Source: Hyphomonas sp.
GTDB taxonomy: Bacteria > Pseudomonadota > Alphaproteobacteria > Caulobacterales > Hyphomonadaceae
DNA length: 64,000 nt
Direction: 5' to 3'
NCBI RefSeq assembly: GCF_036964145.1
Contig: NZ_JBALUC010000005.1
Coordinates: forward strand, 83,012 to 147,011
The notes below the pieces were generated by a model that saw only the letters and a program-made list of their open reading frames with translations, was not told the DNA's origin and made no database searches. Shown piece after piece: positions 3,932-58,668 of this stretch (the first letter of the stretch is position 1; each line of letters opens with the position of its first letter). The translations under genes and the position numbers were made by a program.

Positions 3932-3968
3932 TCTGACGGACCCCCACCTACTCCAATGCCTTGTTTTC

Positions 3969-4046
3969 AAAAAAAAGGCCGCGCTACGAGAGCGCGGCCA
4001 AGGTCAAAGGGAGGAAACGCCAGAGGCGTCTGCACCGGAGTGCATG
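3969..4046 (-). ncRNA. mmgR: alpha-r8 / suhB / MmgR-family small RNA
   Basis: Minus strand has two short hairpins, then the conserved core TTTCCTCCCT, then terminator GGCCGCGCT-ctcgt-AGCGCGGCC-T8; convergent with the N-formylglutamate amidohydrolase gene (known synteny). 5' end approximate. Confidence 0.8.
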
Positions 4047-46901: not shown

Positions 46902-47018
46902 GATCGAACTCCATTCTTGGTGCCCATGCAGCTTCCCGCCGTTCGAGGCCTCTGCCAAGGGGGCTCATGGCGCACATGCCGGGTTTGCAGCCACCCCGAT
47001 TTCAGGCTATGCAAGACC

Positions 47019-49077
<2,059 letters not shown>

Positions 49078-55254: not shown

Positions 55255-55497
55255 ATGTCTCACACCCCCCACGAACTCGTCGAGGAATTCCCGGACGCCG
55301 CCGAGCGCATCCATGCGCTGAAGGAGACCGACGGACATTTTGCCCGCCTCGCCGACGACTATCATGAGGTGAACCGCCAGATTCACCGCATCGAGACAAA
55401 TGTGGAGCCGGCAAGCGATGCCTTCCAGACCCAGCTGCGCAAGCACCGCATGGCGCTCAAGGATGAAATTCACACCATCCTGACCGCCCCCGCCTGA
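55255..55497 (+). CDS. DUF465/YdcH family protein
   Basis: MSHTPHEL.EEFP..AERIHALK..D.HF..L...Y...N..IHR.E...RM.LKDEI. Confidence 0.88.
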   Translation: MSHTPHELVEEFPDAAERIHALKETDGHFARLADDYHEVNRQIHRIETNVEPASDAFQTQLRKHRMALKDEIHTILTAPA

Positions 55498-55519: not shown

Positions 55520-55648
55520 ATGGGTAATCTGAGCGTTGATGCCCTGGCCATTGCCGCCCTTTTCGGCTTTGCCAGCCTGTTGCTGATCGGGGCCGGCCTG
55601 ACGGCGTGGCTGTGGAAACAATCCGGCAAGTCCGAAGGGGATTTGTAA
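55520..55648 (+). CDS. 42-aa single-TM small protein (absent from ORF track)
   Basis: GAGGGA RBS; MGNLSVDALAIAALFGFASLLLIGAGLTAWLWKQSGKSEGDL-stop fills the gap between the two DUF465 genes. Confidence 0.65.
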   Translation: MGNLSVDALAIAALFGFASLLLIGAGLTAWLWKQSGKSEGDL

Positions 55649-55662
55649 GCGGAGCCGAGAAC

Positions 55663-55902
55663 ATGACGCACCATATCGGAGAACTGGTCGGCGAGTTCCC
55701 GGACGCCGTGGACCGCATTCTCGAACTGGAATCGACCAATCCGAGATTCTCGGATCTGGCCGATGCCTATGATGAGACCATGGACGCCCTGCAACAGCTC
55801 GAATGCCGGCTGGACCCCGCCGCCAGCGAGGAGGAATGCGCGCGGCTGCACCGCCGCGAAGTGGAACTCCTGCAGGAACTCTGCACCCTCCTCGTGAGCT
55901 GA
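55663..55902 (+). CDS. DUF465/YdcH-like paralog
   Basis: MTHHIGELVGEFPDAVDRI.EL...NPRF..LAD.Y, clearly similar to 55255-55497; GGAG RBS. Confidence 0.75.
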   Translation: MTHHIGELVGEFPDAVDRILELESTNPRFSDLADAYDETMDALQQLECRLDPAASEEECARLHRREVELLQELCTLLVS

Positions 55903-55925
55903 GATTGTTCGGAGACAGAGATATT

Positions 55926-56107
55926 TGTCATCCCGGAATGTGCGCCAGCAAATAGCCGGGAGCCTGCGCCGATAGCTTCGTGCGCACCCGTCATCCTTCA
56001 ACTTCGCTCAGGATGAGTCCTTGCTTTATGCGCGCTCATGCTGAGCGAAGTCGAAGCACGGACGCGGGCTGTGGCCGGATAAGCGCGGTGCGCTTTCCGG
56101 GATGACA
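55926..56107. repeat. Nested inverted REP doublets (182 bp)
   Basis: Outer 13-bp terminal inverted repeat TGTCATCCCGGAA (55926-55938 / 56095-56107); inner pair TCATCCTTCAACTTCGCTCAGGATGA (55991-56016) and TCATGCTGAGCGAAGTCGAAGCA (56036-56058). Confidence 0.8.
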
Positions 56108-56608
56108 GGATTGCGGGGTTGATGTCCTCCCTGCACAAACATCCGGACTGGCACTCGCCATCCGGGTATCCCTCATTCCAGCTCCGCGAGGCGAAGCCGA
56201 GGCGCGGCGGGCGCCGTGGCGCTCCGCCTTGAGTTTGGAATGGCTACGGAATGGAGCGTTACCGCCCGCCGCGCCGGCCAGGAATTTCGGCGAGCACCCT
56301 CAAGGGGGCCCATGGTCCCGGGTCTTCGTTACCGGCGCCGCGCGAACGGATCCATCGTGCTTTCCCACGCATGGCCCATCCGGGGATTGCTCCCGGGCTG
56401 CCGGACGAGGCGGATTCCCAACTTGCTTTCGCAAGCCCACCCTGGCCTGACCTGCCTAGGCGCGCATCGGACCGTCGCCCCGACCCGCACCCTCCTGACC
56501 CTGCCCCCACAACCAGAACGGTACCTGATCCGGCTCCTGTGAGAGCAGATGCTTAGTATGGGGTAAGGGGGTATCAGGCGGATACGGGATCAAAACCTCA
56601 CCTCCGAA

Positions 56609-56698
56609 GATACCTGCGAATGCAGGTATCCATCTCCTGCTGCTCCCTCATGCACAGGAGGAAACATCCGGAGATGGGCCCCTGCCTCCGCAGGGGCC
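56609..56698. repeat. Degenerate inverted REP doublet
   Basis: TACCTGCGAATGCAGGTATCCATCTCC and the inverted CCCCTGCGGAGGCAGGGGCCCATCTCC. Confidence 0.7.
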
Positions 56699-56784
56699 TG
56701 CGGGGAAGCCTATCTCTCTCCCACAAACACCGCTTCCCCGGCATGCGCCGGAGAGGCGGGGAGAGGAAACCGTCTTTCCTCACG

Positions 56785-56940
56785 CGTCATCCCCGACGCG
56801 CAGCGTCTGGGGACCCATCTCTGAAAGATGCCCCCGGAACGTCCTGCGCGGTGAAGGGATTGCGGGCGTGCAATGCCCCTCGCTCATATGGCGTCGTCCC
56901 GTGATGCCCCCCAGACCGCCAATGCGGTCGGGGGTGACGC
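56785..56940. repeat. CGTC-tagged inverted REP doublet downstream of GIY-YIG gene
   Basis: CGTCATCCCCGACGCGCAGCGTCTGGGGACCCATCTCTGAA and the inverted CGTCACCCCCGACCGCATTGGCGGTCTGGGGGGCATC. Confidence 0.85.
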
Positions 56941-56959
56941 CAGGAGTGCAGACCGCTCC

Positions 56960-57262
56960 CTACCCCGTGATCTCGAACCACAAATCCTTCCAATGAGGAT
57001 TGCGCTCCGTGATCAGATTGATCTTGCTCTTCCGCCGATAGGATTTCAGGGATTTCTCACGCGCAATCGCTCTGCTGATCTCATCATGCAGTTCGTACCA
57101 GACAAGCATCCGGCAGCCATGCGTCTTGGAAAAGCCCCGGAACACGCCTTCGCGGTGTTGCCAGACGCGCTGGACAAGGTGGGACGTGACCCCGGTATAG
57201 AGCGCGCCCTGCTTGCGATTGGCCATCATGTAGACGGCAATTATGCGGTCCTCATTGGCCAT
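56960..57262 (-). CDS. Stand-alone GIY-YIG nuclease (100 aa)
   Basis: AVYMMAN...ALYTGVT..L..RVWQHR...AIAREKSLK...NPHWKDL; catalytic Tyr/Arg/Glu/Asn positions intact; GGGAG RBS. Confidence 0.93.
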   Translation of the reverse strand: MANEDRIIAVYMMANRKQGALYTGVTSHLVQRVWQHREGVFRGFSKTHGCRMLVWYELHDEISRAIAREKSLKSYRRKSKINLITERNPHWKDLWFEITG

Positions 57263-57306
57263 GCCCAGCTCCCTTCCCAAACCTCCCTACACAAGAACAA
57301 AAATTG

Positions 57307-57468
57307 CGTCATGCCCGATGGCCGCAGGCCATCTGGGAACCCATCTCTGAACGATATTACAGAGAACGTCATGCGCCGTGTGGAGAAACTCGCACGCCCC
57401 CGCACCGGACGCATCCGGTTGCCCCGTTCAGCGATGGGCCCCCAGACGCTGCGCGTCGGGGGTGACGC
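57307..57468. repeat. CGTC-tagged inverted REP doublet upstream of GIY-YIG gene
   Basis: CGTCATGCCCGATGGCCGCAGGCCATCTGGGAACCCATCTCTGAA and the inverted CGTCACCCCCGACGCGCAGCGTCTGGGGGCCCATCGCTGAA. Confidence 0.85.
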
Positions 57469-57570
57469 CAGGAGGAGAGGATGGCCCCTTCACTTCCCTG
57501 CTAGGGCAAAATAAAAACTCTCCAACCGACAGCCACAACGAGCCATAACCCAATAAACGATCTGAGCTCC

Positions 57571-58668
57571 CTAACTCATCCACCTCAACACCCGCGCCTC
57601 AATCGGGTTCGCGAAGTCGCGCCCTTCTGTCCGGCATTCCGTCCACTCACGTTTTAGCCGCTGGTACCATTTGGCCTGGATGTCGATGTCGTCGATCCAC
57701 ATCATGGCTTTCTGGTGGGCCATGCCCTGATTTTGCAAATCCACCATGTCGCCATCCTGGCGCAGGAATTTGCGGGCCATCGGCTTGGCGATGGGCACGG
57801 CGAGGTGGAGCAGCGGCGCGCCGGTCCACCAGGTGAACTGGGTGATCCGTGTGCGTTTCGGGGCCTCAGGCGTCAGGCAGGTGAGCGTCAGCAGGCGGGC
57901 CTTGTCATTCGAGATGATCTCCCAGCGATAGCCGGGCAGCTGGAACCGGATCTCGGTTTCCACATCATCCCCGAAGACCCAGCGATACAATTTCGAGTTC
58001 GAGCTGGGCGGATGGCGGTCAATCGCCCAGCCGCGCTCCGTCGGGATGAAGGGCTTTTCCTTCAGCTTCAGGCCCACGGAAGGCGGACGCCACCACCATT
58101 GATTGTGCACGAAGGGCACATGGGCCGGGTCCATCAGGCCGACCACGGCATCATCCATATGGGCGTTGAACACGTCATGGATGACAAAGCCGGGCTTGTC
58201 CGGCAGCGGGCCGAATTCCGGTGGCGGCACGGCGGGGGGCGTGTCCGCGCGGGGATTGTGGGCGACATAGAGATAGACCGCGCCATTGGCCTCATGCACC
58301 GGATAGCGGCGCACTTTTACCCTGGACGGGTCATAGGGGCTGTCGTCGGTGAGGGACGGCATCAGCTTGCAGCCGCCATCCGTGCCAAAGCGCCAGCCAT
58401 GATACGGGCATTGCAGCGTCCACTCGCCATCGGTCTCCAGCTGCTGGCCCGCAGACAGCGGCACGAGGCGGTGGGGGCAGATGTCGCGCAGGGCGAACGC
58501 CTCCCCTGCCGGGGTGCGGCCGACCACGACAGGCTCTCCCAGCACCATGATGCGATGCTGCTTGCCCGGGGCCAGGTCGGTCGACGGGGCCGCGAGATAC
58601 CAGCTGTCGGTGAGGTAGCCCTCCTCGGTGATGCCCGTCTTGGGCGCGGTGTGTTGTGTATCTGGCAT
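57571..58668 (-). CDS. Rieske non-heme iron oxygenase (VanA-like alpha subunit)
   Basis: CPHR...CPYHGW Rieske motif; DPAHVPFVH mononuclear iron motif. Confidence 0.9.
   Translation of the reverse strand: MPDTQHTAPKTGITEEGYLTDSWYLAAPSTDLAPGKQHRIMVLGEPVVVGRTPAGEAFALRDICPHRLVPLSAGQQLETDGEWTLQCPYHGWRFGTDGGCKLMPSLTDDSPYDPSRVKVRRYPVHEANGAVYLYVAHNPRADTPPAVPPPEFGPLPDKPGFVIHDVFNAHMDDAVVGLMDPAHVPFVHNQWWWRPPSVGLKLKEKPFIPTERGWAIDRHPPSSNSKLYRWVFGDDVETEIRFQLPGYRWEIISNDKARLLTLTCLTPEAPKRTRITQFTWWTGAPLLHLAVPIAKPMARKFLRQDGDMVDLQNQGMAHQKAMMWIDDIDIQAKWYQRLKREWTECRTEGRDFANPIEARVLRWMS

What the first reader, a model, noticed from the sequence alone, without database searches (positions are those of the whole stretch)
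56110..56600. Unexplained ~480-nt hairpin-rich non-coding tract beside the REP/GIY-YIG cluster: candidate structured RNA
Seen: there is no credible ORF, but many stems. A 13-bp perfect stem (56201-56213 / 56263-56275) is continued by a 10-bp stem (56216-56225 / 56253-56262). Minus-strand hairpins include CTTGC-GAAA-GCAAG (56422-56435), GGGA-GCAA-TCCC (within 56380-56396), CCAT-G-CGTG-GGAAAG-CACG-ATGG (56352-56374), GCG-GTAA-CGC (56256-56265) and a further hairpin at 56141-56167. The minus strand ends in an SD-like GGGAGG (about 56126-56131) with no ATG after it before the REP begins. Established: repeated GNRA-capped stems are typical of large structured ncRNAs. Inference: a functional RNA (leader, guide/bridge-like RNA, or the end of an HUH/IS110-type element) whose ORF was deleted or lies elsewhere. 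It might partner the GIY-YIG nuclease. The G.U pairs in the long stem favour the plus strand, so orientation is uncertain.
Basis: partly seen in the sequence, partly recalled or inferred. Interest (0 to 1): 0.65.

Follow-up and report, generated by a model that had tools for sequence, protein, structure and literature searches.

The report
New multi-copy large structured RNA
The flagged stretch is one of at least six copies of a previously undescribed, roughly 455-base, intricately folded non-coding RNA that marine Hyphomonas bacteria keep in one to about nine copies per genome; selection clearly preserves its fold, but what it does is still unknown.

Summary
The hairpins are real, and the tract has sharp limits (window 56131-56584). 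It is a discrete about 455-nt element with six copies in this genome and about 200 copies in Hyphomonas genomes and marine metagenomes. No Rfam family matches it and no reading frame is conserved. Comparative analysis gives a conserved fold of about 18 helices. On 63 close copies, 96.7% of cells pair, against 38-47% for slid controls. In the 5' domain across 89 sequences, 22 of 31 pairs show compensatory changes. Copies sit at the same loci in different species (truB-rpsO, ruvB, hisA, ligase), yet they group by genome in a tree, which indicates concerted evolution. Genomes with a single copy keep the truB-rpsO one. RNA-bearing genomes lack TnpB, IscB and reverse transcriptase. IS110 recombinase, Y1 transposase and the neighbouring GIY-YIG (Ssn) nuclease do not co-occur with the RNA. 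It is absent from the phage, plasmid and viral collections searched. My best reading is a lineage-specific structured RNA gene family that acts in trans.

The parts
56131..56584 (-). The whole conserved unit (RNA gene). The 5' end is (A/U)AUCC and the 3' end is GUGC(A/U)G.
   Evidence: Homology among 6 own-genome copies and about 200 foreign copies starts and stops here. An nhmmer profile of 465 states matches full length.
56501..56548 (-). P1: a 19-bp two-part hairpin whose 11-nt apical loop carries the nearly invariant palindrome GGUACC (56520-56525).
   Evidence: The outer stem covaries: CUCACA/UGUGGG, CCGCACA/UGUGCGG and UCCAGCGAC/GUCGCUGGA. The loop is GGUACC in 82 of 95 unique copies and GGUGCC in 12.
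56493..56500 (-). P2 5' strand (GGUCAGGA). It pairs with 56276-56283 and encloses the central domain.
   Evidence: It covaries between subtypes: GGUCAGGA/UCCUGGCC versus AUGGAGA/UCUCCAU.
56276..56283 (-). P2 3' strand (UCCUGGCC).
56459..56491 (-). P3 hairpin with a conserved loop (G/U)(A)ACGG, followed by the invariant junction CUAG.
   Evidence: 12 of 13 pairs carry compensatory changes across 89 sequences.
56289..56456 (-). Its architecture differs between subtypes by whole hairpins.
   Evidence: Helices 6-14 are 94-100% paired. Compensatory changes occur in the GAAA hairpin (4 of 6 pairs) and in the 15-bp hairpin (5 pairs). Subtype differences are seen.
56201..56275 (-). P11: a long hairpin (13 + 2 + 6 + 3 bp) that is almost invariant in sequence, with an A/U/C-rich variable apical loop.
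   Evidence: 18 of 21 pairs never vary in 31 copies, and the only changes are G-C to G-U. Its upper half is replaced in a fourth subtype, while the 13-bp base is kept.
56178..56199 (-). P12: a variable hairpin that is absent in some subtype-2 copies.
   Evidence: 81% paired, poorly aligned
56143..56165 (-). P13: the 3'-terminal hairpin CCGGAUGG(C)-loop-GCCAGUCCGG, with one bulged G. The stem is invariant and the loop is variable.
   Evidence: 98-99% paired. A solo copy of it lies at G000 C2:141225-141299.
56580..56583 (-). P0 5' strand (AUCC). It pairs with GGAU at 56168-56171 and closes the molecule. This helix is tentative.
   Evidence: alifold, 87.9% paired. Subtype 2 uses GGGAU/AUCCC at the equivalent place.
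55926..56107 (.). A neighbouring REP-like composite inverted repeat. It is a separate repeat family and not part of the RNA.
   Evidence: Pairs I3 and I6. Many copies lie elsewhere in the genome without the RNA.
56604..56703 (.). A neighbouring REP-like hairpin just 5' of the RNA. It is a separate repeat family, and a similar hairpin lies just 5' of several other copies.
   Evidence: Pair I2

Best explanation
The tract is a gene for a non-coding RNA of about 455 nt, read from the window's minus strand (56584 to 56131). The RNA folds into about 18 helices. A long-range helix (P2), and probably a terminal helix (P0), enclose a multi-helix core with GNRA-type loops. Three modules are almost invariant in sequence: the P1 loop CCGGUACCGUU, the long hairpin P11, and the bulged 3' hairpin P13.

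It is one of six paralogous copies in this genome. The family is essentially confined to Hyphomonas, with 1 to 6 copies per sampled genome and at least 8 on one metagenome contig. Copies sit at loci conserved between species and are kept alike within a genome by gene conversion.

I infer that the RNA acts in trans as a folded RNA or RNA-protein particle. The invariant hairpins P11 and P13 would be protein-recognition sites. The invariant loops would be tertiary or RNA-RNA contacts, and the self-complementary GGUACC loop is a candidate kissing contact between two molecules.

Shown here: the family, its limits, the folded strand, the fold, purifying selection on each copy, locus conservation, concerted evolution, and the absence of known partner proteins. 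Inferred: transcription, action in trans, protein binding and dimerisation.
For: - Copy number and sharp limits.
- No Rfam family, at the gathering score or at E<=10, nor for distant members.
- Fold and covariation: alifold gives -183.9 kcal/mol (covariation term -10.1) on the minus strand and -140.1 (+1.67) on the plus strand. On 31 copies, 94.5% of cells pair against 88.0% for shuffles, with 0 of 500 as high. In the 5' domain, 89.6% pair against 73.1%, and 22 of 31 pairs are compensatory. For the whole structure, 141 pairs are 96.7% paired, against 38-47% for slid controls.
- Strand: G·U to A·C is 252:17 and 888:61.
- Conserved loci: the ruvB, truB, ligase, hisA and F loci are shared by 3-7 genomes each. 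Genomes with one copy keep the truB-rpsO copy.
- Concerted evolution: the tree groups copies by genome and not by locus.
- Not selfish in any known way: no TnpB, IscB or RT in RNA-bearing genomes, and IS110, Y1 and Ssn do not co-occur. It is absent from viral contigs, phages and plasmids.
- P1 loop: the variants GGUGCC (at least 3 lineages) and GGUAUC keep self-pairing through G·U.
Against:
- No sigma-70-like promoter or canonical terminator lies in or next to the unit. Homology ends abruptly at the 5' end even in single-copy genomes, so the promoter is either an unrecognised internal one or the RNA is cut out of longer transcripts.
- The family is missing from at least 12 sampled Hyphomonas genomes, so it is not essential to the genus.
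- Spread from one locus to 6-9 loci as a unit with sharp ends implies some mobilising process that I did not identify.
- One P1-loop variant (GGUAGC) breaks self-complementarity.
- The 'further pair types' and 'pairs with change on both sides' measures for the whole structure on close copies do not exceed shuffles. The cell-based measures that do exceed them can be inflated by relatedness.
Confidence: 0.55

Rival explanations
1. It is the RNA of a non-autonomous mobile element, such as a guide or scaffold RNA in the manner of omega-RNA/HEARO or a bridge RNA, or of an unknown mobilising enzyme. The element spread from the truB-rpsO locus to other intergenic sites and is now mostly immobile.
For: - It is a discrete unit with sharp, constant ends dispersed into unrelated intergenic regions.
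- Copy number runs from 1 to at least 8.
- Presence/absence varies between species: the L065/L069 and L064 sites are empty in G000.
- Copies truncated at the 5' end exist (L055; the solo P13 at C2:141225).
- It often lies next to REP-type repeats.
- Its distribution within the genus is patchy.
Against: - RNA-bearing genomes have no TnpB, IscB or RT.
- IS110 and Y1 transposases are absent from several RNA-bearing genomes and present in genomes without the RNA.
- No recurrent non-orthologous neighbour gene was found over 46 loci searched.
- No terminal inverted repeats or target duplications were seen.
- Copies sit at orthologous loci across species whose flanks are only about 73% identical, and copies within a genome are 87-96% identical rather than near-identical.
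- It is absent from phage, plasmid and viral collections.
Confidence: 0.22
2. It is a cis-acting transcript module with no trans function, for example an RNA-stabilising, terminating or insulating block at the ends of operons. It would be transcribed only by read-through from the upstream gene.
For: - No promoter of its own was recognised.
- The nearest upstream gene is co-oriented in 45 of 61 loci.
- The 3' hairpin P13 also occurs alone directly after a convergent gene.
- REP elements, which can play such roles, are its usual neighbours.
Against: - A 455-nt fold of 18 helices with invariant loops and a long-range enclosing helix is far more than a stabiliser or terminator needs.
- At the ancestral truB-rpsO locus it is antisense to both neighbours, and upstream sequence is unrelated between species.
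- The upstream genes are unrelated in function.
Confidence: 0.12
3. The structure is selected in single-stranded DNA and not in RNA. It would be a very large REP-like element recognised on one DNA strand, for example by an HUH enzyme or an Ssn-type nuclease.
For: - The strand asymmetry (G·T tolerated) would also fit single-stranded DNA.
- It lies beside REP and Ssn-type hairpin repeats, and 2 of the 3 GIY-YIG genes in the genome are adjacent to copies.
- No promoter was found.
Against: - Ssn and Y1 proteins do not co-occur with it.
- Known ssDNA-recognised repeats are single hairpins of 20-50 nt (PMC11893778).
- Long-range helices, multi-way junctions and GNRA-type loops with covariation over 450 nt are hallmarks of RNA.
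Confidence: 0.07
4. It is a decayed gene, a chance GC-rich fold or a mosaic of REP fragments with no function of its own.
For: Single-sequence z-scores are modest. The region is REP-rich.
Against: - Compensatory changes occur in most variable helices over about 90 distinct sequences.
- Full-length copies are conserved at orthologous loci across species.
- There is no similarity to the neighbouring REP families.
- There is no Pfam match, and the indels break reading frames.
Confidence: 0.02

Closest known systems
HEARO RNA / IscB omega-RNA (Rfam RF02033) and TnpB omega-RNAs
   Same: Both are large, highly structured bacterial RNAs found as many dispersed copies, often without an adjacent ORF, in intergenic DNA.
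   Different: There is no match to the Rfam models. The RNA-bearing genomes have no IscB or TnpB gene anywhere. Copies are syntenic between species and homogenised within genomes, not recent insertions.
Large 'ornate' bacterial RNAs of unknown or recently emerging function (OLE, ROOL, GOLLD, raiA)
   Same: All are several hundred nucleotides long, with many helices, conserved loops, GNRA-type caps and no coding capacity, and all were found by comparative analysis. The self-complementary conserved loop recalls the RNA-RNA contacts reported for some of these (from my own knowledge, not tested here).
   Different: It has no sequence or structure match to any of them. Those are usually single-copy or carried by phages or plasmids. 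This one is chromosomal, multi-copy, genus-restricted and shows concerted evolution.
Multi-copy alphaproteobacterial sRNA families (for example the alpha-r / 'cuckoo' families)
   Same: Paralogous RNA genes are scattered in intergenic regions of one alphaproteobacterial genome.
   Different: Those are 100-150 nt with two or three hairpins and seed motifs. This RNA is three to four times longer, with an enclosed multi-domain fold. None of those Rfam families matched.
IS110/IS1111 bridge RNA
   Same: It is a structured non-coding RNA associated with REP-rich DNA, and the genome does carry IS110-family elements.
   Different: It is not next to any DEDD recombinase gene. It has no similarity to the IS110 contigs. 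IS110 is absent from the RNA-bearing genomes G007 and G014. It is also much longer than bridge RNAs (length from my own knowledge).

Membership tests
HEARO / IscB omega-RNA | Match to the covariance model RF02033 | tested here: not met
   cmscan of 55850-57600 at E<=10 lists no HEARO hit. The gathering-score scan of the whole window lists none either.
HEARO / IscB omega-RNA | An IscB gene in the genome (next to at least some copies) | tested here: not met
   NF040563 search: 0 of 25 genomes exceed the cut-off, and only generic HNH-domain hits appear.
TnpB omega-RNA (IS200/IS605, IS607) | A TnpB gene (Zn-ribbon/RuvC domain, PF07282) in the genome | tested here: not met
   No match in G000, G003, G007, G010, G013 or G014. 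The controls were detected.
TnpB omega-RNA (IS200/IS605, IS607) | Co-occurrence with a Y1 (HUH) transposase, and subterminal hairpins at both ends | tested here: not met
   PF01797 is absent from the RNA-bearing genomes G003, G013 and G014. Only the 3' end has a subterminal hairpin.
IS110 bridge RNA | Encoded in the non-coding end of an IS110 element, beside the DEDD recombinase gene | tested here: not met
   No recombinase cluster appears among the neighbours of 46 loci. The family profile has no hit on the IS110 contigs C10 and C11. PF01548 is absent from the RNA-bearing genomes G007 and G014.
Group II intron (including ORF-less forms) | Domain V/VI or D1-D4 covariance-model match, and a reverse transcriptase in the genome | tested here: not met
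   No Intron_gpII or D1D4 hit at E<=10. PF00078 is absent from G000, G003, G007, G010 and G013.
REP / Ssn-related motif (SRM) repeats | A single 20-50-nt hairpin repeat, associated with a RAYT or Ssn gene | tested here: not met
   The unit is about 455 nt with about 18 helices. Ssn homologues are absent from the RNA-bearing genomes G007, G013 and G014 and present in many genomes without the RNA. The size of SRMs is taken from PMC11893778.
Riboswitch or 5' leader | A constant position upstream of, and co-oriented with, a functionally related gene | tested here: not met
   The downstream gene is on the opposite strand in 40 of 71 loci, and the genes differ (truB, ruvB operon, hisA, ligase).
Known large structured RNAs (OLE, ROOL, GOLLD, raiA, RNase P, tmRNA, SRP, 6S) | Match to the Rfam covariance model | tested here: not met
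   None is listed for the tract or for diverged members.
Protein-coding gene or pseudogene | A conserved reading frame or a similarity to a protein family | tested here: not met
   Close copies differ by 1-nt and 4-nt indels, and subtypes differ by whole-hairpin indels. The ORFs have no Pfam match below E=0.2.
Structured non-coding RNA (generic) | A secondary structure conserved through compensatory changes, with strand-specific G·U | tested here: met
Structured non-coding RNA (generic) | A discrete transcript of the predicted strand and size | not testable with these tools

The most novel reading that the evidence does not exclude
This is a new class of large 'ornate' bacterial RNA that works as an RNA machine or as a self-assembling RNA particle. 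Two or more molecules would be joined through the self-complementary GGUACC loop of P1, and the invariant hairpins P11 and P13 would serve as docking or protein-binding modules. Hyphomonas would maintain it as a small multigene family by gene conversion, an RNA gene family that behaves like rRNA operons in its evolution but has no known function.
Probability: 0.25. Interest if true: 0.85.

Novelty: categorically new. Interest (0 to 1): 0.72.

Why it matters
Large bacterial RNAs with intricate conserved folds are rare. Each earlier class, such as RNase P RNA, group I and II introns, and the HEARO/omega-RNAs, turned out to have notable biochemistry.

This family has an unusually rich data set for its size. 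There are about 200 copies in at least four subtypes, strong covariation, conserved loci, and natural strains with one copy and with six. A structure model and knock-out experiments are therefore possible straight away.

Two features are uncommon for a bacterial non-coding RNA and would each be of interest if confirmed. The first is concerted evolution of dispersed copies. The second is three sequence-invariant modules in a molecule that otherwise covaries.

The result also removes a tempting but unsupported link to the neighbouring Ssn nuclease and to RNA-guided transposon nucleases.

"Categorically new" here means that the RNA belongs to no described family and fails every membership test I could run. 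Its mechanism is unknown, so it may later turn out to fit a known functional kind.

Tried and rejected
1. Rfam at the gathering score and at E<=10, on the tract and on diverged members, gave only chance miRNA-like hits on neighbouring REP hairpins.
2. Coding capacity: no Pfam match and frame-breaking indels.
3. GIY-YIG/Ssn partnership: two of the three GIY-YIG genes lie next to copies, but the phyletic patterns disagree and Ssn is reported not to bind RNA. The adjacency is better explained by shared clustering with REP/SRM repeats.
4. TnpB, IscB, reverse transcriptase, IS110 and Y1 transposase as partners were all rejected on absence or lack of co-occurrence.
5. Phage, plasmid or viral carriage: none found.
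6. Promoter and terminator scan: nothing found. The conserved 5' motif ATCC-N18-20-CAT.CT has promoter-like spacing, but it matches no sigma-factor consensus I know, and part of it can pair within the fold. This is left open.
7. Exact insertion boundaries from filled-versus-empty sites: flanks of the informative pairs are only 70-81% identical and the alignment was not interpretable.
8. A pseudoknot between the variable P11 apical loop and other variable regions showed no consistent complementarity (by eye, on the alignments).
9. Wider distribution: the 5'-domain model found only two weak hits outside the genus among 401 genomes of the order. The 24 genus-mates of one of them have none.
11. 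Literature searches for Hyphomonas or Hyphomonadaceae structured RNAs found nothing relevant.

Full report
**What is there.**
The flagged tract lies in a 1-kb gene-free stretch. On one side are two small ydcH-like genes downstream of ruvB. On the other is a GIY-YIG gene on the minus strand. No Rfam family matches, either at the curated thresholds over the whole window or at E<=10 over 55850-57600. In that second scan only chance miRNA-like hits fall on the neighbouring REP hairpins.

**It is a repeated unit with sharp ends.**
A search of the window's own genome (3.53 Mb, 19 contigs) finds the tract at six loci, with 87-96% identity:
- this copy (C5:139136-139601)
- C5:243493-243942
- C4:103777-104243
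- C1:40891-41423 (interrupted by an 8-N scaffold gap)
- C1:91368-91831 (with an N gap)
- one copy split between the end of C5 and the start of C1

Homology starts and stops at the same bases in all copies, window 56584 to 56131. Close copies differ by 1-nt and 4-nt indels, and overlapping ORFs have no Pfam match, so the unit does not code for protein. The REP-like repeats on either side (55926-56107 and 56604-56703) are separate families with many copies of their own.

**Distribution.**
- An exact 24-nt pattern from the long hairpin hits 40 stretches among one genome for each of 185,579 species. Most titles name Hyphomonas or Hyphomonadaceae (H. atlantica, H. beringensis, H. jannaschiana, strains L-53-1-40 and CY54-11-8, and MAGs). 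The other two name MAGs labelled only Alphaproteobacteria and Rhodobacterales.
- The pattern also hits 108 marine metagenome stretches, with at least eight on one 2.1-Mb contig.
- There are no hits in viral contigs, phages or plasmids.
- A covariance model of the 5' domain (R1) searched over 401 genomes of the order finds 17 genomes of the genus, with 1 to 6 hits each. It also finds two weak hits outside the genus. The 24 genus-mates of one of those outliers have none.
- At least 12 sampled genomes of the genus lack the RNA.
- At least four subtypes exist. They share the ends and the core modules, but their central domains differ by whole hairpins.

**Strand and fold.**
- On eight close copies, RNAalifold gives -183.9 kcal/mol with a covariation term of -10.1 for the minus strand. 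The plus strand gives -140.1 with +1.67.
- Over 31 diverse copies, the helices that align cleanly are 94.5% paired. They would be 81.8% paired on the other strand, and G·U cells outnumber A·C cells by 252 to 17.
- Over 63 subtype-1 copies, a full model of 141 pairs in 18 helices is 96.7% paired. Shuffles give 92.5% (0 of 500 as high), partners slid by 1-3 columns give 38-47%, and G·U to A·C is 888 to 61.
- In a model-guided alignment of the 5' domain with 89 distinct sequences, 22 of 31 pairs carry compensatory changes, and the covariation score is 0.512 against 0.222 for shuffles.
- Caveats: that alignment leans towards its model. The cell-based measures can be inflated by relatedness. On the close copies, the two measures that count pairs or pair types do not exceed shuffles.
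- Single-sequence folding is only mildly better than shuffles (z = -2.4), so the case rests on the comparative data.
These never vary, and on the minus strand they form a 2x2 internal loop. The positions in that stem that do vary change G-C to G-U on the minus strand.

**Anatomy in window coordinates, minus strand.**
- P0 (tentative): AUCC 56583-56580 pairs with GGAU 56171-56168.
- P1: 56548-56501. Its 11-nt loop holds the palindrome GGUACC.
- P2: 56500-56493 pairs with 56283-56276 and encloses the central domain. It covaries between subtypes.
- P3: 56491-56459, followed by an invariant CUAG.
- Central domain: 56456-56289, with the GAAA, GCAA and GGAAAG hairpins.
- P11: 56275-56201.
- P12: 56199-56178.
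- P13: 56165-56143.

Three modules are nearly invariant in sequence although the rest of the molecule covaries freely: the P1 loop, P11 and P13. That points to recognition of the bases themselves, by a protein or another nucleic acid. The P1 hexamer is GGUACC in 82 of 95 unique copies. The variants GGUGCC (at least three lineages) and GGUAUC still pair with themselves through G·U. One variant, GGUAGC, does not. This is weak but suggestive support for a loop-loop contact between two molecules.

**Evolutionary behaviour.**
- Copies lie at the same loci in different species. These are the intergenic regions beside truB (7 or more genomes), the ruvB operon (5, including this copy), a ligase-like gene (4), hisA (4-5), and the locus split across the C5/C1 contig ends (3).
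- The four one-copy genomes examined all keep the copy between truB and rpsO, on the strand opposite to both genes.
- Yet in a maximum-likelihood tree, copies group by genome or lineage and not by locus. This is the signature of gene conversion among dispersed paralogues.
- Some loci are filled in other species and empty here. There are also 5'-truncated remnants (L055, and a solo P13 at C2:141225). So the family did spread as a unit by some process I could not identify. I saw no terminal inverted repeats or target duplications.

**Partners tested.**
The RNA-bearing genomes G000, G003, G007, G010, G013 and G014 have no TnpB Zn-ribbon domain, no IscB above the cut-off and, except G014, no reverse transcriptase. 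IS110 recombinase is absent from G007 and G014 and present in many genomes without the RNA. Y1 transposase is absent from G003, G013 and G014.

Two of the genome's three such genes lie beside copies of the RNA. However, Ssn homologues are absent from G007, G013 and G014 and common in genomes without the RNA. The family is reported to bind ssDNA hairpin repeats and not RNA (PMC11893778). The adjacency is best explained by both features lying in clusters of REP/SRM repeats.

**Transcription signals.**
No sigma-70-like promoter or canonical terminator was found. Upstream sequence is unrelated between species right up to the first conserved base. The conserved 5' segment (ATCC, 18-20 nt, CAT.CT) has promoter-like spacing but no consensus I recognise, and part of it can pair within the fold. 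The nearest upstream gene is co-oriented in 45 of 61 loci. Read-through followed by processing therefore remains possible.

**Verdict.**
The tract is one copy of a previously undescribed, genus-restricted, multi-copy structured RNA. The same family was noted by another agent of this scan in a different Hyphomonas genome. I confirmed that independently. I also add the strand, the full fold, the locus conservation with concerted evolution, the ancestral truB-rpsO copy, and the absence of the partner proteins of the RNAs that note named as closest.

I rate a structured RNA gene acting in trans as the most likely reading (0.55). The RNA of an unidentified mobile element comes next (0.22), then a cis-acting transcript module (0.12), a single-stranded-DNA element (0.07) and junk (0.02).

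Noticed in passing
window 56784-56940 and 57306-57468, flanking 56960-57280 (-): The GIY-YIG (Ssn-family) gene is bracketed by homologous CGTC-type hairpin repeats (pair I1, 55 nt, 85% complementary). The same type of repeat lies directly 5' of four copies of the RNA in genome G003/BC3.34.
   Followed up: partly
window 55255-55497, 55520-55648, 55664-55902 (+): Two paralogous small ydcH/DUF465-like ORFs (both begin ...HELVEEFPDA...) lie downstream of ruvB and bracket a 42-aa hydrophobic ORF. The same arrangement is conserved next to the RNA in other species.
   Followed up: no
G000 C2:141225-141299: A solo copy of the 3' hairpin P13 with its tail (CCGGATGGCATTCGCCAGTCCGGCTATTTGCGCAGG) lies directly after a convergent gene. 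It is either a 5'-truncated remnant of the RNA or a terminator-like reuse of the hairpin.
   Followed up: partly
G000 contigs C9-C13: The small contigs are collapsed insertion sequences. Judged by eye from the translated ORFs (C10 and C11 later confirmed as IS110 by PF01548), there are two IS110-family elements (C10, C11), two IS5-like elements (C9, C13) and one IS630-like element (C12). Five IS110 DEDD domains are found in the genome in all.
   Followed up: partly
G000 C1:41106-41113 and C1:91461-91678; the end of C5 and the start of C1: Copies of the RNA break the assembly. One copy holds an 8-N gap with a 79-nt duplicated overlap, one holds a 218-N gap, and one is split between two contig ends. 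This implies that C5 joins C1.
   Followed up: partly
window 47015-47126 (+) and 3962-4034 (-): Rfam finds a TPP riboswitch and an mmgR (suhB-clan) sRNA at the gathering score elsewhere in the window.
   Followed up: no
L197 (G100:C2:223880-224019, another family of the order) and L196 (G384, another genus): These are weak but plausible distant relatives of the RNA's 5' domain. In L197 the P1 loop carries a different palindrome, GGAUCC. None of 24 genus-mates of G100 has a match, so it may have been acquired horizontally.
   Followed up: partly
P11 apical loop, window about 56229-56241 (-): The apical loop of the otherwise invariant long hairpin is 13-18 nt, free of G, rich in A/U/C and different in nearly every copy (AUUCCAAACUCAA, UUUAUUUAUUUCA, UACCUUUUAUCAC and others). 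It might be a variable recognition loop.
   Followed up: partly
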